From contig JABDKK010000021.1 of NCBI GenBank assembly GCA_013002265.1, positions 1 to 38,888 of the forward strand: a DNA stretch of 38,888 nt. Direction: 5' to 3'. This document shows positions 14,044 through 38,502 of this stretch, piece after piece. How positions within the stretch are numbered: the stretch's first letter is position 1; each line of letters begins with the position of its first letter. Under the pieces are notes generated by a model. It was given only the letters and a program-made list of their open reading frames with translations, had not been told where the DNA came from and made no database searches. A program made the translations under genes and the position numbers. The stretch is from Nitrosopumilus sp. (GTDB lineage Archaea > Thermoproteota > Nitrososphaeria > Nitrososphaerales > Nitrosopumilaceae).

Positions 14044-15795
14044 TTGTCGATCTCATTAAATCTTGATAAAAAACTGATTTTCTTGGTAATGATAGTATCA
14101 GTAATTGCACTATCAATTATTGGCTATCTAAGTTTCAATTATGCTGATCAAATTTTGAAAGAAAGAGCTGGTGATCAACTAATTGGAGAGTCTACAGTTC
14201 GTGGAGAGACTCTTAGATTACTTTTTGAATCTAGGATGGAACAGAATAGTATTCTAGCAAATGATCCAATGATTCAATTGTTGATCTCAGAGATGAATGG
14301 TATTTCTGAAGATAAATTAAAAGAAACCATAGAAGACAATCGTAGAGACTTTTTAATTCAAGTTCAAGCATTTCAGGAATTAGTTGGATTTTCTATAGGA
14401 TTTGAGGATGTAAAAATAATTGGTTTGAATGGTAAAGTTTACTTTTCACTTGAAAGAATAACAGATGAAGAATATTTGGAAGATCCGTTATTCCAAAAGG
14501 GATTAAAAAAATCATTCATAGAGTTTGAACCAATAGAGTCTGGTAAAAAAATGATAGTGGTATCACCTGTTTTTGCTAAAGATAGTAAAATTGGAGATAA
14601 GGCAATTGGAGTAATAATATCTAAGATGAGAACTACAACAATTGATAATATTTTAATCAATAGAAGTGGATTAGGAGAAACCGGTGAAGTGTACATTGTA
14701 AGTAATGATTTGTTAATGTTATCTGAATCTAGATTCATTGATGATGCCATTTTTCATCAAAAAGTGGATACCCTAGGCGTTCAAAAATGTCTTAATGAAG
14801 GAGAAGATCATGTGGGATTTTATTTAGATTATAGAGATATTCCAATTTATGGTTCAACTTATTGTGCGAATGATTTAGGAATAGTTTTGCTTGTAGAAAT
14901 TGACCAGGCAGAGATTGAAAAACCAATAGACATACTTCAAGATAGAATATTCCAGACAGGAATTGTGATTACATTAGGAATGGGCATGGTTGCTTTTATT
15001 ATATCAAAATCACTATCAAGACCTATAATCAAATTGAAAAATGCTGCAAATAAAATTGCAAGTGGAGATTTTGGTGTTAGAACCAACATAAAGACAAGAG
15101 ATGAGATAGGAGAACTCTCTTTTGCATTTGACTCTATGGCAGAAAAGCTTCAAGAATCATTATTTGAAATCAAAGAGAAAGAAGACGTGATTAAGCAGCA
15201 AGAAGATATTTTGTTACAATTCTCAGACCAGAGTGAAAAATACTGTGTTGGAATGATTGATATAATGGATTCAACTAAGATATGCTCAAATCTTTCAGAT
15301 TCAGAAACAAGTGAATTTTATAATATTTTTATCAATTCTATTGCTGCAATTATTAACAAATTTGGAGGAATTGTTGTAAAAAACATTGGCGATGCTTTGT
15401 TATTTTATTTCTCACTTGAGAACAGTAATGAAAAAGACACTTTGAAAAGTTGTTTAGATTGTTGCTTAGCCTTAAGTGAGGCACATGATGGAATTGTAAA
15501 AAAACTAGAAAAACTTAAACTTCCAACATTAAACTATAGAATTAGTGCTACATATGGAATTGTGCGAATTGCAAGAGCGTCAACTTCATCTGTAAATGAC
15601 ATTTTTGGAACTACAGTAAACAAATGTGCAAAAATGAATCGAAGTTCTCCCCCAAATGGAGTAATAATTGGAGAGAATTTCTATGAAGCTGTGAAAGATT
15701 TTGATGAATATGTGTTCAAGAAAATCGAGAATAAAGTTGTATCAACAGAGGAAGTATATGTTGGATATTCTGTTGAAAGAAATCATTGTGAATGA
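14044..15795 (+). CDS. Membrane sensor: Cache-like domain, HAMP and class III adenylate/guanylate cyclase
   Basis: Two TM helices around LGETGEVYIV...YRDIPIYG; HAMP RDEIGELSFAFDSM; cyclase IDIMDST, KNIGDA, DIFGTTVN. Confidence 0.88.
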   Translation: MSISLNLDKKLIFLVMIVSVIALSIIGYLSFNYADQILKERAGDQLIGESTVRGETLRLLFESRMEQNSILANDPMIQLLISEMNGISEDKLKETIEDNRRDFLIQVQAFQELVGFSIGFEDVKIIGLNGKVYFSLERITDEEYLEDPLFQKGLKKSFIEFEPIESGKKMIVVSPVFAKDSKIGDKAIGVIISKMRTTTIDNILINRSGLGETGEVYIVSNDLLMLSESRFIDDAIFHQKVDTLGVQKCLNEGEDHVGFYLDYRDIPIYGSTYCANDLGIVLLVEIDQAEIEKPIDILQDRIFQTGIVITLGMGMVAFIISKSLSRPIIKLKNAANKIASGDFGVRTNIKTRDEIGELSFAFDSMAEKLQESLFEIKEKEDVIKQQEDILLQFSDQSEKYCVGMIDIMDSTKICSNLSDSETSEFYNIFINSIAAIINKFGGIVVKNIGDALLFYFSLENSNEKDTLKSCLDCCLALSEAHDGIVKKLEKLKLPTLNYRISATYGIVRIARASTSSVNDIFGTTVNKCAKMNRSSPPNGVIIGENFYEAVKDFDEYVFKKIENKVVSTEEVYVGYSVERNHCE

Positions 15796-20112: not shown

Positions 20113-20745
20113 TTATTTTTTTGATTTTACAAATGCAAATGATGCAATAACTATTCCTATAATCCCCATCATAACTCCTACATATCCTATATCCATTTGT
20201 TTGGATTCTTGCAGAGAATTTACAGATTCCTTTAAATCATGAATTTCTGCAATTAAGGATGTGTGACCGTCAATAATTTGATTTAATGTTAGATCGGATG
20301 GTTGGGGAAATTCTATCCATTCTCTTTCTTCTACTTTTGGAGGATGCATTGAAAGGCTAATAGAAGTATCATTAATTGTTCCCAAAATGTTTGCTTGATA
20401 GAATCCAGCAAGAGTAGGATTAACGAATGCGTAATATTTTCCAGGAACATTGTGATCCGGAGACAATGGCAGAATTATGCTTTCATCTTTGTAAACTAAT
20501 TGGATTTTAACTGAATTTTTTAATCCTTCTATTCCATTGTTGAATACTTGCTCCTTGAGCTCTAATCCAGGAACAAGAGGACTAGCATAGAACTCAATTG
20601 CATTAGTCTCTCCAGAAACAACTGGCTCATTCATCCAACCAATTTCTACTCTGTATTCACCAACTGAATCCACTGTATGTGCATAAGCAATTTCAGATAA
20701 ACCTGGTACAAGTATCAAAATTAAAAATATGAAATTAAATTTCAA
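20113..20745 (-). CDS. Exported, C-terminally anchored hypothetical protein with predicted mature N-terminal His
   Basis: Signal peptide ending AYA|H; C-terminal TM helix followed by KSKK. Confidence 0.7.
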   Translation of the reverse strand: MKFNFIFLILILVPGLSEIAYAHTVDSVGEYRVEIGWMNEPVVSGETNAIEFYASPLVPGLELKEQVFNNGIEGLKNSVKIQLVYKDESIILPLSPDHNVPGKYYAFVNPTLAGFYQANILGTINDTSISLSMHPPKVEEREWIEFPQPSDLTLNQIIDGHTSLIAEIHDLKESVNSLQESKQMDIGYVGVMMGIIGIVIASFAFVKSKK

Positions 20746-20808: not shown

Positions 20809-22254
20809 TTAAGCATCTGCATACATAGAGACTTCCCAAGCAGTAGGAGTTTGTGCAAAAGCGGTATATTCCTTATATTTTAGTGATGAATACTGATCTA
20901 GGAAGTCTTGAGTAAATACTTCTTCTAAAAATTTTGAATCACTTTTCAATGAATCAAGTGCTCCCTTGAGGGATACAGGAAGACCGCCAATTTTGTATTC
21001 TCTTTTTTTTTCTGCAGAAAGTTTGTAAACATTTTCTTCTATAGGATCACCAGGATCAGTTTTGTTTTTTATTCCATCTAATCCAGCTAACAATAATGCA
21101 GCTTCTAAAAGATAAATATTTGCAGTAGGATCAGGAACACGGTATTCAATTCTCTTACTTTTTGATTGATTTCTGGTGTACATTGGAACTCGAATAGCTG
21201 CTGATCTGTTTGCTAATCCCCAACATACGTTTACAGGAGCTTCAAATCCAGGAACAAGACGTTTGTAGGAATTTGTTGTAGGATTTGAAATTGCACATAG
21301 AGCTGATGCATGATCTAATATTCCACCAATATAATATCTACCAATCTGACTCATCTGAGCAGCAGAATCGTTTTCATCATACATAACATTAGTATTATTA
21401 TTCCATAGACTTTGATGAGTATGCATTGCCGATGCATTATCTCCAAAAATTGGTTTTGGCATAAATGTTGCAACTTTGTTTTTCCGTTTAGCTTTAACTT
21501 TAACTAAATTTTTTACAGCAATTACATTATCAGCCATAGCTATCATTTCATCGTATACTAAATTGATTTCACATTGTCCAGAAGTAGCAACTTCATGGTG
21601 TTCTGCCTCAATTTTTATTCCAAAATAATTATACAAATCATCGCAGACATCTTTTCGAAATCCCTCAAGCGTATCTTTAGGTTGTGATGGATAGTAGCCC
21701 TCCTTGATATCTATAGCCGTACTAACATTACCTTTAGCCCATGGAGATTCCTTAGATTCGATTGAATATCCTGAACCCCCGTACGAATGGGTTGCAGCAT
21801 ATGGTGACGGATAAACATTGATTGTATCAAATACAAAAAATTCTATTTCAGGACCCCAGTTAGTATGAGTTAATCCAAATTCTTTTAATTTTTCTGATGC
21901 CTTTGATGCAATTCCTCTAGAATCTCTATTGTATCTTGATTCTTTTTGTGTGTTACCATCATATAGATCACAAAAGATTCTTGCATTCTTTCTATTACCA
22001 GGATCATAATCATTTGGAAGAATTCTAAATGAATTTGGATCTGGCAGTAAAATCATATCAGAGTTATTTACTGATTTGAATCCAACAATGGAGCTTGCAT
22101 CTAATTTTTCAAGTCCTGTATCAAAACTACTTTTATCAATTGCATAACTTGGCATTCCAACATTGTGAAGTTCTCCAAAAATATCTACAAACCAAAAATC
22201 AATAAATGAAATTTTTTCAGTTTGAATCGTTTCTAAAACTTGATCTGAATTCAA
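20809..22254 (-). CDS. glnA: Glutamine synthetase type I paralogue (motif-altered)
   Basis: GPEIEFF, HHEVATSGQCEI, FMPKP, NSYKRLVPGFEAP, NRSAAIR, RIEYR; variant DASSI and NASAMH. Confidence 0.85.
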   Translation of the reverse strand: MNSDQVLETIQTEKISFIDFWFVDIFGELHNVGMPSYAIDKSSFDTGLEKLDASSIVGFKSVNNSDMILLPDPNSFRILPNDYDPGNRKNARIFCDLYDGNTQKESRYNRDSRGIASKASEKLKEFGLTHTNWGPEIEFFVFDTINVYPSPYAATHSYGGSGYSIESKESPWAKGNVSTAIDIKEGYYPSQPKDTLEGFRKDVCDDLYNYFGIKIEAEHHEVATSGQCEINLVYDEMIAMADNVIAVKNLVKVKAKRKNKVATFMPKPIFGDNASAMHTHQSLWNNNTNVMYDENDSAAQMSQIGRYYIGGILDHASALCAISNPTTNSYKRLVPGFEAPVNVCWGLANRSAAIRVPMYTRNQSKSKRIEYRVPDPTANIYLLEAALLLAGLDGIKNKTDPGDPIEENVYKLSAEKKREYKIGGLPVSLKGALDSLKSDSKFLEEVFTQDFLDQYSSLKYKEYTAFAQTPTAWEVSMYADA

Positions 22255-22324
22255 TTATTGTTTTTTCTAGTTTATTTTACTAATATTATCTAGTAAGTTA
22301 GAATTGTCAATATGGTCAGAAATT

Positions 22325-23689
22325 CTAAGATTCTGGGTAATCCTCTACTGGGTTTGTTTTTTTAAAGTTCTTTAACTCATCTTCAAAGAAGAATTTATCA
22401 GTTAATGCTGGTTTTAAGTCATCCAACCAAATTGCATTCTCATCATATTTTGCAAAGAATGGTACTTGAACCCAGTTAGGATTTCTTCCTTGTAAAAATC
22501 TTAAAACAATCACTTTTTGATCATGAAGATCTGCTGTTCCAATTACATGTACTTTTCCAGGAGTTGCTGACATACTAGGTCCACGAACTGTTCTTGCTAA
22601 CCCACTTACTGAAGAATATGCTTTTCTAAAAATATTATATGCCTTTACCAGTGGAACTCCGAAATAATGCTGAGCACCTGTATCTCTAACCACAAACATG
22701 TAATATGGAACACAACCTAGCTGGACCTGTTTGGTCCACATTTTTGTCCACATTTCTGCATCATCATTGATATGTGCCAAAAGTGGAGATTGCGTTCTAA
22801 TTATTGCGCCAGTATCTCTTACTGCATTAATTGCTTGAACTACTGCATCAGTTGATAATTCATTTAGATGATTAAAGTGAGCCATAAATGCAAGATGTAA
22901 TCCACTTTTGGTTATCTTTCTAAATACATCTAACATTTCCTGTGAATCAGCATCTGTCAAAAATTTGTAAGGCCAATAAGAAAGAGATTTTGTTCCAATT
23001 CTAATTGTTTTAAGATTTGGAAGTTTAGCATCAATTAAGATATCAACGTATTTTGAAAACATTTTTGCTTTCATTATCATTGGATCTCCTCCTGTAAACA
23101 GAACATCAGAAATTTCTGGATGCTCTCTAAGATATTGAACGAGCTGATCGCCTTCTTGCATAGCAAATTTCATTTCATCCATTCCCACAAATTGTGGCCA
23201 TCTAAAACAAAAACTACAGTATGCATGGCAAGTTTGACTTTGGCTAGGGAAGAACAGACAGGTTTCGTTGTACTTGTGTTGCATTCCATATAATTTGGTG
23301 CCATCCTTTAGTGTTGGAACATTTAATTCCATTTGGCCTGCTGGATGAGGATTAAGTTGTAAACGTATTTCATTTGCAATTGATGCAATTTCTTTTTTAT
23401 CAGCGTTATTTTTTAGTGCAGTTGCCATTCTGTCATAATGTTCTGGTTTTAGCATTCCTTTTTGAGGAAATGTCAAGACATACATTGGATCATTTGGGAT
23501 GTTATTCCAATCGATTAATTGCTCAACAACGTAGTTATTTGCTTTAAATGGCAAAACATTTCCAACTACTTCCATTTCAAATTTAGTTTCTTCAGAAAGT
23601 TTCTGAATTTGAGGAAGTTGGCGAAAATTTGATAAGGTATAGGATTTTAGTGAGGGGGAATCATCCCAAACAGTTGCCTGATATGTCAT
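22325..23689 (-). CDS. KamA-family radical SAM, PLP-dependent amino acid 2,3-aminomutase
   Basis: HKY, CHAYCSFCFR (CxxxCxxC), VLFTGGDP, IRIGT, HFNH, IND, PYYMF, PGK. Confidence 0.88.
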   Translation of the reverse strand: MTYQATVWDDSPSLKSYTLSNFRQLPQIQKLSEETKFEMEVVGNVLPFKANNYVVEQLIDWNNIPNDPMYVLTFPQKGMLKPEHYDRMATALKNNADKKEIASIANEIRLQLNPHPAGQMELNVPTLKDGTKLYGMQHKYNETCLFFPSQSQTCHAYCSFCFRWPQFVGMDEMKFAMQEGDQLVQYLREHPEISDVLFTGGDPMIMKAKMFSKYVDILIDAKLPNLKTIRIGTKSLSYWPYKFLTDADSQEMLDVFRKITKSGLHLAFMAHFNHLNELSTDAVVQAINAVRDTGAIIRTQSPLLAHINDDAEMWTKMWTKQVQLGCVPYYMFVVRDTGAQHYFGVPLVKAYNIFRKAYSSVSGLARTVRGPSMSATPGKVHVIGTADLHDQKVIVLRFLQGRNPNWVQVPFFAKYDENAIWLDDLKPALTDKFFFEDELKNFKKTNPVEDYPES

Positions 23690-23845
23690 TTTAGTTACTA
23701 ATACAGTTACCCTTGTTAAAGGTTACAGGTTTTTCTATGCGTAAAAAAATTTTATATTTTATAAAAACCGAATTTTAAACTCAATTAGATATGAAAAAAC
23801 AGGTTAACCTTTGTATTCAAGAAAAAAATAGAAAAAGGGATCTAA

Positions 23846-25639
23846 ATGGCTGAGGAGATTATTGAAGCAGTTGTAGAACAAACAAACGAATTTCAAAATA
23901 TTTCTGAATTAATAGCATCTTCAGAGTCATTACAAATAGCGTTTACAGTCTTAATTATTGGGATTTTAGGCATAACAATTGTTTATCGTTTTTTTTCAAA
24001 ATGGGTTTCATCTCAAAAATTTACCTATTTTAGGCCACATCTTTCAAGATTTGTTAGGGTAGGAGTATTACCGTTTTTTGCAATAATTTTAATCACTAGT
24101 ATGAATGCGTATATTCAATCATTTGAGTTATTTGACGATATTATAATGTCAGAGTCGGATGGAATTTTTTCAGATGAATTAGACAAGTCTGTATCTGAAA
24201 AGAATGCACAGAATTTATCTTCTGCTAAAACATTTGCAAAAATTCTCAATACAATTAACATTCTAGTAATCGGTTATTCAGTTGCACATCTTATTCCAAT
24301 AATTATTTCTAAAAGAGAAAAATCACATCTTGAAAAAGAAGACTATGAAGCATGGAAAGATATGAGAGGCTTTCAAGATGATGAAAATGATTTATTTCAT
24401 AAATGTTTCAAATGGGTTCCTCCAAAACACACACCAGAAGACATTTCTGATGAGGATTTTTTGGAGAATCTAAAAACAGAAGAAGGTCGAAAGTTTCTAG
24501 AGGAGTTCCGAACAACAAAAGGACTACCAATTGGAAGTTATGAACAATTAGTAAAAGATCCATTCGAGATATGGAAAAATTCTGAGAGAAAAAAGTATCG
24601 TGATTATTTTAAACAATGTGTTACAGGAGATAATCAATCAGGGAAAAAACTTAGACTGGGACAAGAAGATGAAGAAATTTATCCAATTGATACATGGAGA
24701 GAAGAAAAAAGATTAGAATCGTACGATCCAATTATTGCTGGTGGAAGACCACCAGGTTATGCAACAAGAAAGAGAAAAAATCTTCCAAAATCCATAAGCC
24801 AAATTTTACCTCTAGGAATTTTTGTTGCAGTTATAATTGGAGTAATTAATTGGTGGGGAGTTGATCTTTTTGTTTTAGCAACCGCAACAGGAGGATTAGC
24901 AATTGGAGTAGGATTAGCTTTACAGGAAACTATGCAGAACTATTTTGCATATATTTTGATAAGAAAAGACAAAATATTTTCTGAAGGTGAACGTGTCAAA
25001 CTAGATACTGGATATAATGGCTATGTACATAAAATCACGCCTAGAGTAACCTACATCAGAGATGCATTAAACGAGTCATTTGCAGTAATTCCTACAAGAC
25101 AATTGGTCAATGCTCAGATTATCAATTTCTCAAAAGAGATCAAAATGGTTCCAGCAATAGTCGAAGTTGGAGTTTCGTATCTTAATAATCCAAAACAAGT
25201 AGCTGCAATTCTTGTAAAAGTTGGAAAGCGGGCTATGAAGGAATCAATTGATAGTAAGGGCAGACATCTTGTTACACAGTTAAGATGTCCATATTTAGAA
25301 GAAAACAAACCTAGTTGTGGATGTGATAAAGATATTCATGTAGATATTAATCAGCCAGTTGTTAGATTTAATCAATTCAATGATTCATCATTAGATTTTT
25401 CGTTGTGGCTTTATGTCAGAGATTATGGTTCTCAATTCAAAGCTAAAACAGAAATGAGGATGATTATGTACGAGGAATTCAAAAAGTACGACATTAGAAT
25501 TCCATGGCCAATTAGAACTATCTATCAAGGTGATGAAAAACGTGAGGATGAAGAGATTAGAAAGTTTGATAGTCAAAGAAATGAGGTAGTGGAAGAATTT
25601 GGCATTGGTGATATTGGTCGTGGAAGTGGAGAGGACTAA
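23846..25639 (+). CDS. MscS-family mechanosensitive channel with large insertions
   Basis: GLAIGVGLALQETMQNYFA, FSEGERV, IPTRQL, IINFS, VGVSY, IRIPWP. Confidence 0.88.
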   Translation: MAEEIIEAVVEQTNEFQNISELIASSESLQIAFTVLIIGILGITIVYRFFSKWVSSQKFTYFRPHLSRFVRVGVLPFFAIILITSMNAYIQSFELFDDIIMSESDGIFSDELDKSVSEKNAQNLSSAKTFAKILNTINILVIGYSVAHLIPIIISKREKSHLEKEDYEAWKDMRGFQDDENDLFHKCFKWVPPKHTPEDISDEDFLENLKTEEGRKFLEEFRTTKGLPIGSYEQLVKDPFEIWKNSERKKYRDYFKQCVTGDNQSGKKLRLGQEDEEIYPIDTWREEKRLESYDPIIAGGRPPGYATRKRKNLPKSISQILPLGIFVAVIIGVINWWGVDLFVLATATGGLAIGVGLALQETMQNYFAYILIRKDKIFSEGERVKLDTGYNGYVHKITPRVTYIRDALNESFAVIPTRQLVNAQIINFSKEIKMVPAIVEVGVSYLNNPKQVAAILVKVGKRAMKESIDSKGRHLVTQLRCPYLEENKPSCGCDKDIHVDINQPVVRFNQFNDSSLDFSLWLYVRDYGSQFKAKTEMRMIMYEEFKKYDIRIPWPIRTIYQGDEKREDEEIRKFDSQRNEVVEEFGIGDIGRGSGED

Positions 25640-33686: not shown

Positions 33687-33893
33687 ATGAAGATTTGTAG
33701 TATTTGTCATAAAATTTCAGCTACTGAACAAGATCATCTAGATTGTATTCAAAGAAGAAGTATTGAATTAGAAGATGAAAATTTTAAAAATGAAATTCCT
33801 GAAAAACTAAACATTTCAAAAGATAGTCAGGCTTTAGGTGTTGAAGTGCGAGCAATCTTAGAGCATCTTACTAAAGAAAAGGAAGAATCATAA
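33687..33893 (+). CDS. Small hypothetical protein with CxxC...HxxC putative zinc site
   Basis: CSIC-x9-HLDC at the N-terminus. Confidence 0.65.
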   Translation: MKICSICHKISATEQDHLDCIQRRSIELEDENFKNEIPEKLNISKDSQALGVEVRAILEHLTKEKEES

Positions 33894-35036
33894 CCATTTT
33901 GATAATCTGTCTTTTTCAAATTTTAGTTTTTTAGAAAGATTTTCTGCAGTAGATTCTGTAAGATTGGTTGTTGGTTTTGTATTTGAATACATATCAACTT
34001 CAATTTCAGATGCTGTGTCTCTTCCAGATTCTAAGAAACATCCACCTTTTCCATCAAATAATATTGCTTCATGTTTTGAAAGTATTTTAGAAATAATATT
34101 TTTGGCAACTACAATACCTTCTCCTTCAGCAAAAATTCCAGCTTTTGGTACAGCAATAGATTCTGTAACAATCAAACTGGTAACATCGCCAATTGCAAAA
34201 ACATTTTCAAATTCTGTTTTACAGTCTCTATCAATTAAGATAAATCCAGGTTCTTTAGCTAGTCCAGAATCATAGATTACCTTTGGGGCAATATGAGGAG
34301 GAATGGCCAATAGTAAATCAAAATTACTTTCAGAATCTTCAAAGATTAGTTTGTTGTGTTCAACAGACTTGATTTTTGATGAGTTATGAAAAAATATTTT
34401 TTCAGAATCTACTAATTCAAAAATTTTTTTGCTTACTTCTGGTCCAGCTGCTGGTAAAGTAATGGGTGCTGGACTGTACAAATGAATTTGAATAGAATCA
34501 CGAACACCACGTTTTCTTAGCATGGAATCTATGAGTAAACTTGCTTCAAATGGAGCAGGGGGACATTTGTATGGCATGCCCATGATCGAAATAGCAATTT
34601 TTCCAGATTTTATTGCCATTAGTTTTTCATGAATTTTTGAGAGTTGTTTGTGATCATATAGATTAAATCCGTTTTCTTGAAGCCCAGGTATTTTTTCAGG
34701 TGCTAAAACTGTACCCATTGAGATTATCAAATAATCATAAGAAATTGTTTGGGAAGATGTTTTGATATTTTTATTTTGAAGATCAATTGAAAAAATTTCT
34801 TCCTTTATGAAATTAATTTCTTTTTTTGATAAATTGTTTAAAGATCCTATTGAATTTTCAAAAGATCGGGTTCCAGTTATTATCCATAATTTTGCAAACC
34901 CAACCATGAACCAGTCTTTTTTATCAATAATTGTAATTTTTAATTGAGAAGAGTTCAATGAATTTCTCAATTCGTTAGCTGATGAGAGACCACCAAAACC
35001 TCCTCCTAAAATTACAACATGTGGGATTTCTGTCAA
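33888..35036 (-). CDS. FAD-dependent oxidoreductase, sulfide:quinone oxidoreductase-like
   Basis: GGGFGG, YKCPPAPFE, FAIGD, PKAG, GGCFLE. Confidence 0.8.
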   Translation of the reverse strand: MTEIPHVVILGGGFGGLSSANELRNSLNSSQLKITIIDKKDWFMVGFAKLWIITGTRSFENSIGSLNNLSKKEINFIKEEIFSIDLQNKNIKTSSQTISYDYLIISMGTVLAPEKIPGLQENGFNLYDHKQLSKIHEKLMAIKSGKIAISIMGMPYKCPPAPFEASLLIDSMLRKRGVRDSIQIHLYSPAPITLPAAGPEVSKKIFELVDSEKIFFHNSSKIKSVEHNKLIFEDSESNFDLLLAIPPHIAPKVIYDSGLAKEPGFILIDRDCKTEFENVFAIGDVTSLIVTESIAVPKAGIFAEGEGIVVAKNIISKILSKHEAILFDGKGGCFLESGRDTASEIEVDMYSNTKPTTNLTESTAENLSKKLKFEKDRLSKWL

Positions 35037-37041: not shown

Positions 37042-38502
37042 TTGCCCTATAAAGTCAGTCACGGTAAAGCAATACAAGTAACATATTCACCTGATGAAGT
37101 TTTCTCAAGAATACAACATGAGGGAATCCAGTTTATTGATTTACAATTTACAGGTCTAACTGGTCATTTTCATCATACAACAATTTCAGCTGATACTTTT
37201 ACTCCTGAACAAATGCGAGATGGATTACCAAAATTAGATGGATCATCAATTGTAGGATTTACAAGTATAGATGATTCTGATTTATTGCTAAAACCAGATC
37301 CAAACACATTTGCAATAATTCCATGGATGACGGAAAACAAAACTGCTCGTTTACTTTGTGATGTTTATTGGGGAGAAAATAGAGGAAGGCTATCACGGGA
37401 TCCACGAGGTATTTCTCAAAAAGCTGAAGAATATATCAAAACTCAAGGGTATGATTTTAGTACATGGGGGCCAGAAGTTGAATTTTTTGTGTTTGATAAG
37501 GTACATTGGGATGTTCTGACGCCTTACAAAGGTCAATCATATTCTATTGAATCAAAAGAAGCCCCATGGAGTCAAGAAGGTGATGGATACCCAATGGGAT
37601 TACAAGAAGGATATTACCCAAGTACACCATCAGATACTCTTACTCCGTATAGAAATGAATGTGTCAACATTTTGAAAAATAATTTCGGAATATTATGTGA
37701 TAATCATCATCATGAAGTTGCAACAGCAGGACAGTGTGAAATTGATATCAAATATGATTACATGACGAATGCAGCTGATGCTGCACAATCTTACAAATAT
37801 GTAATTAGGAACGTGGCTCAGAAATATGGAAAAGTAGCAACTATGATGCCAAAACCAATTGCTATGGATTCAGGATCCGGAATGCATGTTAATGTTAGTT
37901 TGTGGAAAGGTAAGAAAAATGCATTTTATGATCCAGATGATGAGATTGAATTAAGTCAAGAGGGCAGGTATTTTTGTGGCGGAATTGTAAATCATGCAAA
38001 GGCACTTTCAGCAATTTGTAATCCCACTACTAACTCGTATCACAGATTAGTACCAGGATATGAGGCTCCAGCATATATTGCATGGAGTTCAGGAAACAGA
38101 TCTGCAATAGTAAGAGTTCCAAAACATCTTACCGGTAGGGAATATGCACACCTAAAAAGACTGGAATTTAGAGCTCCTGATCCTTCGTCTAATCCATATC
38201 TTGTATTTGCTGCAGTAACAGCAGCTGGAATGGATGGAATCAAAAAGAAAATGGATCCTGGAGAACAAGTACGTGATGATATTTTCAAGATGACTAAATC
38301 AGATAGAGCTAAAAGAGGAATTGGAGTACTTCCCAAGAGTCTTGGTGAAGCATTAGATGAGTTAGAAAGCGATAGAAAATTCTTGAGTACAATTTTTACA
38401 AATGATGTAGTTGATAAAATTATTGAGTTAGAAAGAAGAGATCAGCGGGAGATTTCAATAAGGCCCCACCCACATGAATTTTATCTATACTTTGATGTTT
38501 AG
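37042..38502 (+). CDS. glnA: Glutamine synthetase type I
   Basis: DGSSI, GPEVEFF, HHHEVATAGQCEI, MPKP, GSGMH, RLVPGYEAP, NRSA, RLEFRAPD; TTG start. Confidence 0.95.
   Translation: MPYKVSHGKAIQVTYSPDEVFSRIQHEGIQFIDLQFTGLTGHFHHTTISADTFTPEQMRDGLPKLDGSSIVGFTSIDDSDLLLKPDPNTFAIIPWMTENKTARLLCDVYWGENRGRLSRDPRGISQKAEEYIKTQGYDFSTWGPEVEFFVFDKVHWDVLTPYKGQSYSIESKEAPWSQEGDGYPMGLQEGYYPSTPSDTLTPYRNECVNILKNNFGILCDNHHHEVATAGQCEIDIKYDYMTNAADAAQSYKYVIRNVAQKYGKVATMMPKPIAMDSGSGMHVNVSLWKGKKNAFYDPDDEIELSQEGRYFCGGIVNHAKALSAICNPTTNSYHRLVPGYEAPAYIAWSSGNRSAIVRVPKHLTGREYAHLKRLEFRAPDPSSNPYLVFAAVTAAGMDGIKKKMDPGEQVRDDIFKMTKSDRAKRGIGVLPKSLGEALDELESDRKFLSTIFTNDVVDKIIELERRDQREISIRPHPHEFYLYFDV

What the first reader, a model, noticed from the sequence alone, without database searches (positions are those of the whole stretch)
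20809..25639. Candidate beta-amino-acid osmolyte module: 2,3-aminomutase + variant glutamine synthetase + divergent MscS
Seen: a KamA-family radical SAM gene is 70 bp upstream of, and co-oriented with, a second GS-I gene. An MscS gene is transcribed divergently from the same 156-bp spacer. No AblB-type acetyltransferase, EpmA ligase or lysine fermentation gene is in the window, and another glnA sits about 15 kb away. Established: KamA-family enzymes make beta-lysine, beta-glutamate or beta-arginine; beta-glutamate, beta-glutamine and N-epsilon-acetyl-beta-lysine are archaeal compatible solutes; GS-fold enzymes also act as gamma-glutamyl-amine ligases; MscS releases solutes on osmotic downshock. 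Inference: a two-step pathway (Glu to beta-Glu to beta-Gln, or Lys to beta-Lys to gamma-glutamyl-beta-Lys) with its own release valve. I do not know of such a pathway being characterised in ammonia-oxidising archaea.
Basis: partly seen in the sequence, partly recalled or inferred. Interest (0 to 1): 0.8.

Follow-up and report, generated by a model that had tools for sequence, protein, structure and literature searches.

The report
Beta-glutamate osmolyte genes in marine archaea
This marine ammonia-oxidising archaeon carries a gene labelled 'lysine aminomutase' that likely makes beta-glutamate, the solute a close relative is known to hoard, beside a predicted pressure-release channel and an extra glutamine synthetase that possibly turns it into beta-glutamine.

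Summary
Observation confirmed: three intact genes at the stated spacing, in a Nitrosopumilus. The aminomutase meets no KamA-family cut-off. Arg and Ser replace the two lysine-binding Asp residues, and a 46%-identical homologue sits in an incednine-type cassette. It is most likely a glutamate 2,3-aminomutase. N. maritimus has the same gene order, transcribes all three genes, and holds 730 mM beta-glutamate (Heal 2021).

Among 115 family genomes, 93 have the aminomutase. All 72 with the extra GS, all 80 with the long MscS and all 56 with an unlinked PLP enzyme are among them. The 22 without it have none of these. A lake lineage lacks the aminomutase, channel and second GS, but freshwater and soil genera often keep them.

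The GS keeps every ammonium-site residue, which argues against gamma-glutamyl-beta-lysine. It has two Gly-to-Ala changes in the glutamate loop and its own promoter-like motif, and 21 aminomutase genomes lack it. Beta-glutamine synthesis is plausible (about 45%) but unshown. No activity was assayed. The scan reported this module before in four other genomes; the PLP partner, the separate promoter motif and the habitat counts were not in those notes as shown to me.

The parts
22325..23689 (-). Radical-SAM/PLP 2,3-aminomutase of a divergent KamA-like clade; likely glutamate 2,3-aminomutase (beta-glutamate synthase)
   Evidence: CxxxCxxC at C154/C158/C161; R163, R335 and K379 invariant in 148 of 148 rows; only PDB sequence hit is 2A5H; below all KamA-family cut-offs; syntenic with Nmar_1772
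20809..22254 (-). Second type I glutamine synthetase (GS-a), a Nitrosopumilaceae-specific clade; possible beta-glutamine synthetase
   Evidence: TIGR00653 516 bits; one clade, SH-aLRT 100; catalytic residues kept, Gly-to-Ala at the 265 and 267 equivalents; found only in kamA-positive genomes
23846..25639 (+). Long MscS-family channel with three extra predicted N-terminal TM segments, a ~160-aa soluble insert of no known family, and an invariant Cys motif (C481, C491, C493)
   Evidence: Pfam MS_channel domains; hydropathy; alignment; AF2 model pLDDT 73, best Foldseek hits are MscS; in 80 of 201 genomes, all kamA-positive
22275..22319 (-). Conserved promoter-like motif of GS-a inside the 70-bp spacer (TGAC repeat, TTACTA/TAGTAA palindrome, TATA-like element ending ~22 nt before the start)
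   Evidence: Found in 19 of 20 loci tried, including relocated GS-a copies; a matrix built without the window finds only this site in G000
23710..23727 (-). Conserved promoter-like motif of kamA, 35-37 nt before the start codon
   Evidence: Same position in 32 loci listed
23803..23818 (+). Similar promoter-like motif before mscS (shares AACCTTT with the kamA motif)
   Evidence: Seen by eye in many Nitrosopumilus loci, not scored against a null
37042..38502 (+). Universal glutamine synthetase copy (GS-b), comparator; likely the housekeeping enzyme
   Evidence: Groups with the single GS of sister families; the only GS type found in 21 of the 22 kamA-negative family genomes, G146 also holding an unrelated 42% copy

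Best explanation
The aminomutase likely converts L-glutamate into beta-glutamate, the cell's predicted main organic osmolyte; the neighbouring MscS channel would release it on a drop in salinity, and the extra glutamine synthetase would most likely amidate part of it to neutral beta-glutamine. Shown: the genes, their residues, their nested distribution, their transcription in N. maritimus, and beta-glutamate in that strain. Inferred: the substrate of each enzyme, the channel's cargo, and salt control. The GS step is an optional add-on with its own promoter. An unlinked class I PLP enzyme (G000 C102:3425-4783) would recycle beta-glutamate. The stated confidence is for the whole chain. The shared core (aminomutase makes beta-glutamate as osmolyte, MscS as valve) is about 0.73, and glutamate as substrate about 0.85.
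For: (1) R335 sits at Asp293 of the Clostridium lysine aminomutase and S372 at Asp330, by ungapped extension through a true AblA. These Asp residues bind the lysine side-chain amine, and clostridial glutamate aminomutases carry Lys/Asn there (both recalled; paper not held). (2) A 46%-identical, 98%-covered homologue with the same Arg sits among PKS, proline-iminopeptidase-type hydrolase, PLP enzyme and adenylation genes. That is the layout of the incednine starter cassette, whose IdnL4 is the likely glutamate 2,3-aminomutase (PMC11284099, PMC9169493). (3) N. maritimus SCM1 holds 730 mM beta-glutamate (PMC8269262), has the same gene order, and transcribes Nmar_1771/1772/1773 at 52/79/39 TPM (PMC12448741 supplement). 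(4) Nesting: GS-a 72 of 72, long MscS 80 of 80 and PLP enzyme 56 of 56 genomes are kamA-positive. (5) Where the long MscS is missing (Nitrosotenuis and g16), a different, short MscS lies within 1 kb in 7 of 9 loci. Cation/proton antiporters occur in 17 of 60 kamA loci and 0 of 26 (shorter) GS-b loci. (6) Habitat table (PMC9891703 Table S7), freshwater/brackish/marine: kamA 0/48, 13/25, 31/35; MscS1 0/48, 14/25, 30/35; second GS 0/48, 7/25, 23/35; ectoine synthase in only 8/35 marine. (7) GS-a has Gly267Ala in 55 of 55 rows against 1 of 48 other GS. Methanohalophilus GS makes beta-glutamine at high salt (PMC1224877).
Against: No enzyme of this clade was assayed here, and IdnL4 activity has not been seen in vitro. 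The true IdnL4 sequence was not in hand; L116 is called IdnL4-like from gene content, and it has Val, not Ser, at the 372 position. Other clade members sit in NRPS or lysine/ornithine N-hydroxylase clusters, so substrates may vary. GS-a passes the ordinary GlnA model and keeps Asn264 and His271, which the family's GS-b copies have lost. It was not found in 21 of 93 kamA genomes, is broken in several, and lies beside 0 of 49 bacterial homologues. It has moved next to amt/P-II genes in two genomes and abuts a urease cluster in one. Low-salt genera keep kamA: Nitrosotenuis 9/11, Nitrosarchaeum 5/12, Nitrosotalea 4/12 (habitats recalled). The 48 freshwater genomes are about one lineage, and 12 of 16 kamA-negative brackish or marine genomes also lack the universal GS, which points to assembly gaps. 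Joint loss of adjacent genes needs only one deletion. In biofilm the three genes move differently (+0.58, -0.27 n.s., -0.67 log2). I found no report of beta-glutamine in these archaea.
Confidence: 0.4

Rival explanations
1. Same beta-glutamate core with MscS valve, but GS-a is an ordinary alpha-glutamine synthetase kept to assimilate ammonium when the beta-glutamate pool drains nitrogen or interferes with GS-b.
For: Passes the GlnA cut-off. All ammonium-site and metal residues are kept, more canonically than in GS-b. It has its own promoter-like motif, has relocated near amt/P-II or urease genes in three genomes, and is missing from 21 of 93 kamA genomes.
Against: Never found without kamA (0 of 22 family genomes, 0 of 86 other genomes). 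It stays next to kamA across genera with different flanks. The glutamate-loop change is almost unique to this clade. Its promoter motif has no second copy in G000 (assembly 82% complete).
Confidence: 0.33
2. The enzyme makes beta-glutamate, but mainly for nitrogen storage, charge balance or catabolism; mscS and GS-a are neighbours by descent.
For: Kept in freshwater and soil genera. Bacterial homologues mostly pair with a class I PLP enzyme (13 of 49 loci, 12 of them one clade) rather than MscS (3 of 49). G000 also has ectABCD.
Against: Two unrelated MscS types and antiporters recur beside kamA. The trio moves together into new surroundings. The 730 mM pool and the loss in a lake lineage fit an osmotic role.
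Confidence: 0.13
3. The aminomutase acts on lysine (or another amino acid), and GS-a ligates glutamate to the product, e.g. gamma-glutamyl-beta-lysine.
For: Public names say lysine 2,3-aminomutase. Among substrate-specific models AblA scores highest, 110 bits against 86 for the glutamate model, both far below cut-off. One relative is fused to a Lys/Orn monooxygenase.
Against: Both lysine-binding Asp positions are replaced. No AblB or EpmA in the assembly. GS-a scores 241 against a cut-off of 650 for gamma-glutamylputrescine synthetase and keeps the ammonium site. The measured solute is beta-glutamate.
Confidence: 0.08

Closest known systems
IdnL4-type glutamate 2,3-aminomutase of 3-aminobutyrate-starter macrolactam clusters (incednine)
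   Same: Same divergent clade as a homologue in such a cassette (L116, 46% identity), same Arg at the Asp293 position, and a related class I PLP partner.
   Different: Primary metabolism in archaea, with no PKS; Ser rather than Val at the Asp330 position; paired with MscS and a GS. IdnL4 itself was not compared by sequence.
Lysine 2,3-aminomutase (Clostridium subterminale KamA, PDB 2A5H; methanogen AblA with AblB)
   Same: Radical-SAM motif, substrate-carboxylate Arg, PLP lysine and fold. AblA/AblB also make a beta-amino-acid osmolyte.
   Different: Only 21% identity in the structural match of a relative; lysine-binding Asp residues replaced; 110 vs 525 bits cut-off; no AblB.
Clostridial glutamate 2,3-aminomutase (TIGR04368)
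   Same: Same proposed reaction; basic residue at the Asp293 position (recalled).
   Different: 86 vs 650 bits: a separate lineage, so the specificity would be convergent.
Methanohalophilus portucalensis GS making beta-glutamine
   Same: GS acting on beta-glutamate at high salt (PMC1224877).
   Different: In the passages read, that is one GS with raised beta-glutamate activity, and NMR ruled out an aminomutase as the methanogen source of beta-glutamate; here a separate paralogue is tied to an aminomutase.
MscS family (E. coli MscS, MscK, YnaI)
   Same: C-terminal channel core.
   Different: Extra TM segments, a ~160-aa insert with no Atlas hit, and an invariant three-Cys motif.

Membership tests
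Lysine 2,3-aminomutase (KamA/AblA) | Score over the TIGR03820 cut-off | tested here: not met
   110 vs 525 bits
Lysine 2,3-aminomutase (KamA/AblA) | Asp293/Asp330 for the lysine side chain (roles recalled) | tested here: not met
   R335 and S372
KamA-like radical-SAM/PLP aminomutases (broad) | CxxxCxxC, carboxylate-binding Arg, PLP lysine, LAM fold | tested here: met
   C154/C158/C161, R163, K379; best fold match of relative P0122 is 2A5H, TM 0.65
KamA-like radical-SAM/PLP aminomutases (broad) | Score over the TIGR00238 cut-off | tested here: not met
   126 vs 199 bits
Clostridial glutamate 2,3-aminomutase (TIGR04368) | Score over cut-off | tested here: not met
   86 vs 650 bits
IdnL4-type glutamate 2,3-aminomutase | Same clade as the aminomutase of 3-aminobutyrate macrolactam cassettes | tested here: inconclusive
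   Clade shared with L116; L116 assigned by gene content, IdnL4 sequence not available
Glutamate 2,3-aminomutase (any) | Converts L-Glu to beta-Glu | not testable with these tools
   Needs an anaerobic assay
Type I glutamine synthetase (GlnA) | TIGR00653 cut-off; ammonium, metal and ATP residues | tested here: met
   516 vs 429 bits; residues kept in 55 of 55 rows except Gly265/Gly267, with Tyr397 in 54 of 55
gamma-glutamyl-amine ligases (PuuA, GmaS) | Score over family cut-offs; altered ammonium site (recalled) | tested here: not met
   241 vs 650 and 242 vs 470 bits; ammonium site intact
beta-glutamine synthetase activity | Amidates beta-glutamate | not testable with these tools
   No sequence signature known to me; needs kinetics
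MscS family | MscS beta-domain and C-terminal domain, fold | tested here: met
   PF00924 and PF21082 over cut-off; Foldseek E 5e-10
MscS family | Tension-gated solute release | not testable with these tools
   Needs downshock rescue or patch clamp
AblAB N-epsilon-acetyl-beta-lysine system | ablB acetyltransferase | tested here: not met
   No match in G000, control rang (82% complete); the GNAT seen near some loci does not follow kamA

The most novel reading that the evidence does not exclude
Nitrosopumilaceae acquired from bacteria a complete beta-amino-acid osmolyte cycle: a glutamate 2,3-aminomutase, a dedicated beta-glutamine synthetase switched on separately at higher salt, a lineage-specific MscS with an unknown sensing insert, and an unlinked PLP enzyme that returns beta-glutamate nitrogen and carbon to metabolism. 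Beta-glutamine would then be an overlooked, abundant ocean metabolite hidden under the mass of glutamine.
Probability: 0.25. Interest if true: 0.82.

Novelty: new variant of a known kind. Interest (0 to 1): 0.62.

Why it matters
Beta-glutamate is the most abundant identified metabolite of N. maritimus and rises with depth in the ocean, yet my searches found no gene assigned to it in these archaea. The aminomutase is in 116 of 121 Nitrosopumilus genomes, whereas ectoine synthase is in 8 of 35 marine genomes of a published table. This may be the general salt-balancing system of some of the most abundant marine microbes, hidden under a wrong annotation. It gives a marker gene for a large organic nitrogen pool, makes the route testable with one enzyme assay, and suggests re-annotation of a clade that is widespread in bacteria.

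Tried and rejected
Expression in the window's own organism: no RNA holder listed. GNAT plus amidohydrolase pair seen beside the cluster in three genera: rejected as a dedicated part, because the GNAT occurs in 2 kamA-negative family genomes and 9 of 14 genomes of another family. Sigma-70 and terminator scan: no excess over shuffles (19 vs 24; 2 vs 2.2), and not suited to archaea. Lysine 5,6-aminomutase search: uninformative, no control rang. A clostridial glutamate aminomutase reference could not be obtained, and the paper defining its residues is not held, so those roles are recalled. Viral contigs: no GS-a relative. Phage hits to kamA were only distant. Plasmid search with GS-a gave only ~41% ordinary GS. 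Atlas search of the MscS insert: no usable hit; of kamA: generic names only. The aminomutase structure model is of relative P0122, not the window protein, and gave no residue-level map. GC3 of the three genes is like their neighbours, so no sign of recent transfer. Searches for locus tags and for AOA glnA papers found nothing. The auroramycin preprint had only a reference hit. Two rows of the GS tree (L056_B, L127_B) were duplicate GS-a sequences mislabelled by my script; they were dropped from the residue counts. No complex prediction was sent, since no binding is claimed.
Full report
Observation. The three ORFs, the 70-bp gap, the 156-bp divergent spacer and the second GS at 37042-38502 are as described. 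The nearest named homologues are Nitrosopumilus. The assembly is 82% complete and holds one kamA-like gene and two GS genes. The gene order from tyrS to rnz matches N. maritimus Nmar_1751-1776 as listed in a transcriptome supplement, so Nmar_1771/1772/1773 are taken as orthologues by synteny, not by sequence.

The aminomutase. It scores below all six KamA-family cut-offs. Its only solved relative by sequence is lysine 2,3-aminomutase 2A5H, which is also the best fold match of a 57%-identical relative. The cluster cysteines are present, and R163, R335 and K379 are invariant in 148 of 148 rows (92 archaeal, 49 bacterial, 7 plasmid; some genomes appear twice). R335 aligns to Asp293. S372 aligns to Asp330 by ungapped extension through an AblA that passes its cut-off. 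I recall, without having seen the papers, that these Asp residues bind the lysine amine and are Lys/Asn in clostridial glutamate aminomutase. A basic residue there fits an acidic substrate. On a FastTree tree the archaeal genes form one branch (support 100, with one bacterial bin inside it) nested among Bacteroidota, Chloroflexota and other bacterial homologues. This suggests one gain from bacteria; no donor was tested. Of seven plasmid loci read, one (L116, 46% identity) lies in a PKS / hydrolase / PLP enzyme / adenylation cassette. That layout matches the incednine starter pathway, where feeding and knockout point to IdnL4 as a glutamate 2,3-aminomutase, although no in vitro activity was seen (PMC11284099, PMC9230918, PMC9169493; passages). 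The other six lie in NRPS, N-hydroxylase or mixed contexts, so the clade need not have one substrate.

The product is known. [quoted passage not shown] Earlier scan notes led me to this paper. Beta-glutamine is not named in the compound lists I could read (Dryad tables and three scanned files not seen), so silence on it says little. All three genes are transcribed in that strain (52, 79, 39 TPM); in biofilm kamA rises, mscS falls and the GS does not change significantly.

Distribution. In 201 genomes of the class, the orthologue occurs in 93 of 115 family genomes and 0 of 86 others; two weak hits of 26-28% are different proteins. Genus-wide it is in 116 of 121. GS-a (57% identity or more) is in 72, counting a frameshifted copy in G182. 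The long MscS is in 80 and a class I PLP enzyme in 56. All are kamA-positive, and the 22 kamA-negative family genomes have none. One search listed the best 150 matches and left 145 weaker ones unlisted; I checked five genomes again, so further GS-a fragments may be hidden. kamA and GS-a are adjacent in 54 of 72 and within about 2 kb in 3 more. In 60 fetched loci, 52 have an MscS: 45 the long type and 7 a short type behind DUF432. Those 7 are among the 9 Nitrosotenuis and g16 loci, genera in which the long type was not found. DUF432-MscS pairs are multi-copy (five in G000), which weakens that point. Antiporters occur in 17 of 60 kamA loci and 0 of 26 shorter GS-b loci. These genomes are kin, and neighbours can be lost in one deletion; the PLP enzyme is the exception, being usually far away. 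Of 49 bacterial loci, 0 have a GS, 13 a class I PLP enzyme and 3 an MscS.

Habitat. In Table S7 of PMC9891703 (rows read; orthogroups matched to these genes by arCOG and pattern, which is inference), kamA is in 0 of 48 freshwater, 13 of 25 brackish and 31 of 35 marine genomes. MscS1 is in 0, 14, 30, the second GS in 0, 7, 23, and the universal GS in 34, 15, 32 (the sheet's header gives other group sizes than its columns). The freshwater set appears to be one quasi-clonal lake species, and 12 of 16 other kamA-negatives also lack the universal GS. Against a strict salt link, Nitrosotenuis (9 of 11), Nitrosarchaeum (5 of 12) and Nitrosotalea (4 of 12) carry kamA (habitats recalled).

The GS. GS-a is one clade (SH-aLRT 100, long stem), while GS-b groups with the single GS of sister families. 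GS-a keeps the equivalents of Asp50, Ser53, Tyr179, Glu212, Glu327 and the metal and arginine residues in 55 of 55 rows (Salmonella numbering; loop roles from PMC10799026 passages, and recall). Ammonium is therefore the likely nucleophile. Its Asn loop reads Ala at Gly265 (54 of 55) and Gly267 (55 of 55, against 1 of 48 others), near where the glutamate amino group binds (recalled). A pattern from this loop pulled 120 metagenome loci: 119 were GS-a, and 50 of the 59 with room upstream or a visible kamA held kamA. The family's GS-b has lost Asn264 and His271, so GS-a is in part the more canonical enzyme. The spacer holds a conserved motif ending about 22 bases before the GS-a start. It moves with relocated copies and occurs once in G000. 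GS-a likely has its own promoter.

The channel and a fourth part. The MscS core is clear. The insert at about residues 155-315 has no match, and the model is only moderately confident (pTM 0.46). The PLP enzyme on G000 C102 is sister to 12 enzymes that flank bacterial kamA homologues (support 89), loosely groups with the IdnL3-like protein (81), and stands apart from the genome's other aminotransferases. It sits beside kamA or GS-a in three archaeal loci and after acsA in 11 of 20 loci. It probably consumes beta-glutamate; decarboxylation and transamination are both possible.

Mechanism and verdict. Most likely: glutamate to beta-glutamate by radical amino migration, accumulation as an osmolyte, release through MscS, optional amidation to beta-glutamine by GS-a, and recycling by the PLP enzyme. 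It works like IdnL4 and like the methanogen beta-amino-acid strategy, but it is not a member of KamA/AblA or of TIGR04368. Ten paper searches and passages or supplements of three AOA genomics papers (PMC7554672, three files unreadable and one cut; PMC8397731; PMC9891703) showed no assignment of this gene to beta-glutamate. Subscription papers and preprint supplements were not visible. The scan itself reported the module in four other genomes. New variant of a known kind; interest 0.62.

Noticed in passing
G000 C102:3425-4783 (locus L242): Class I PLP enzyme after gatA-gatB-acsA, found only in kamA-positive genomes (56 of 201). Its likely N. maritimus counterpart Nmar_0865 falls in biofilm while kamA rises. 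Candidate beta-glutamate decarboxylase or transaminase.
   Followed up: partly
L103-L107: A third GS clade (4 Nitrososphaeraceae-type genomes and one family contig) in an operon with glutamate-synthase-like, GATase and GXGXG genes. GOGAT is described as lost in AOA; the layout also recalls gmaS-mgsABC (recalled).
   Followed up: partly
window 37042-38502: The universal GS of this family has Ser/Ala at Asn264 and Asn at His271, unusual for a housekeeping GS-I.
   Followed up: partly
L110:4803-5972 (G068): A second, unrelated KamA-like gene in a NeuB / SIS / ATP-grasp sugar-modification island.
   Followed up: no
L043, L045, L047, L054, L056, L057, L059, L067, L068: A TFB paralogue lies within 6 kb of kamA in 10 of 60 loci and in 0 of 26 GS-b loci; kamA and mscS share an upstream motif, perhaps read by one TFB.
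   Followed up: partly
L038, L040, L042, L049, L056, L070; G000 C14:4576-6016: GNAT plus amidohydrolase pair beside mscS in three genera; not restricted to kamA genomes.
   Followed up: yes
G000 C173:1537-4631: Complete ectABCD cluster, so this strain has a second osmolyte system. C216 holds the start of a second long MscS, and five DUF432-MscS pairs lie on other contigs.
   Followed up: partly
L116 (NZ_CP108009.1): Streptomyces plasmid with a likely 3-aminobutyrate-starter macrolactam cluster.
   Followed up: partly
P0128; L115: Aminomutase of this clade fused to, or clustered with, a Lys/Orn N-monooxygenase, a cupin and a tRNA-ligase-like gene: a possible N-N bond natural-product cluster.
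   Followed up: no
PMC8397731 section 15: 3-aminobutyryl-CoA lyase and transaminase in sediment AOA were explained by scavenging; beta-glutamate decarboxylation would give an internal source.
   Followed up: no
window 33888-35036 and 14044-15795: A type III sulfide:quinone reductase-like gene (below cut-off) and a Cache-HAMP-cyclase protein.
   Followed up: no
window 20113-20745: 210-aa membrane-anchored protein of no Pfam family, kept after GS-a or kamA in 27 fetched loci; its arCOG also occurs in freshwater genomes.
   Followed up: partly
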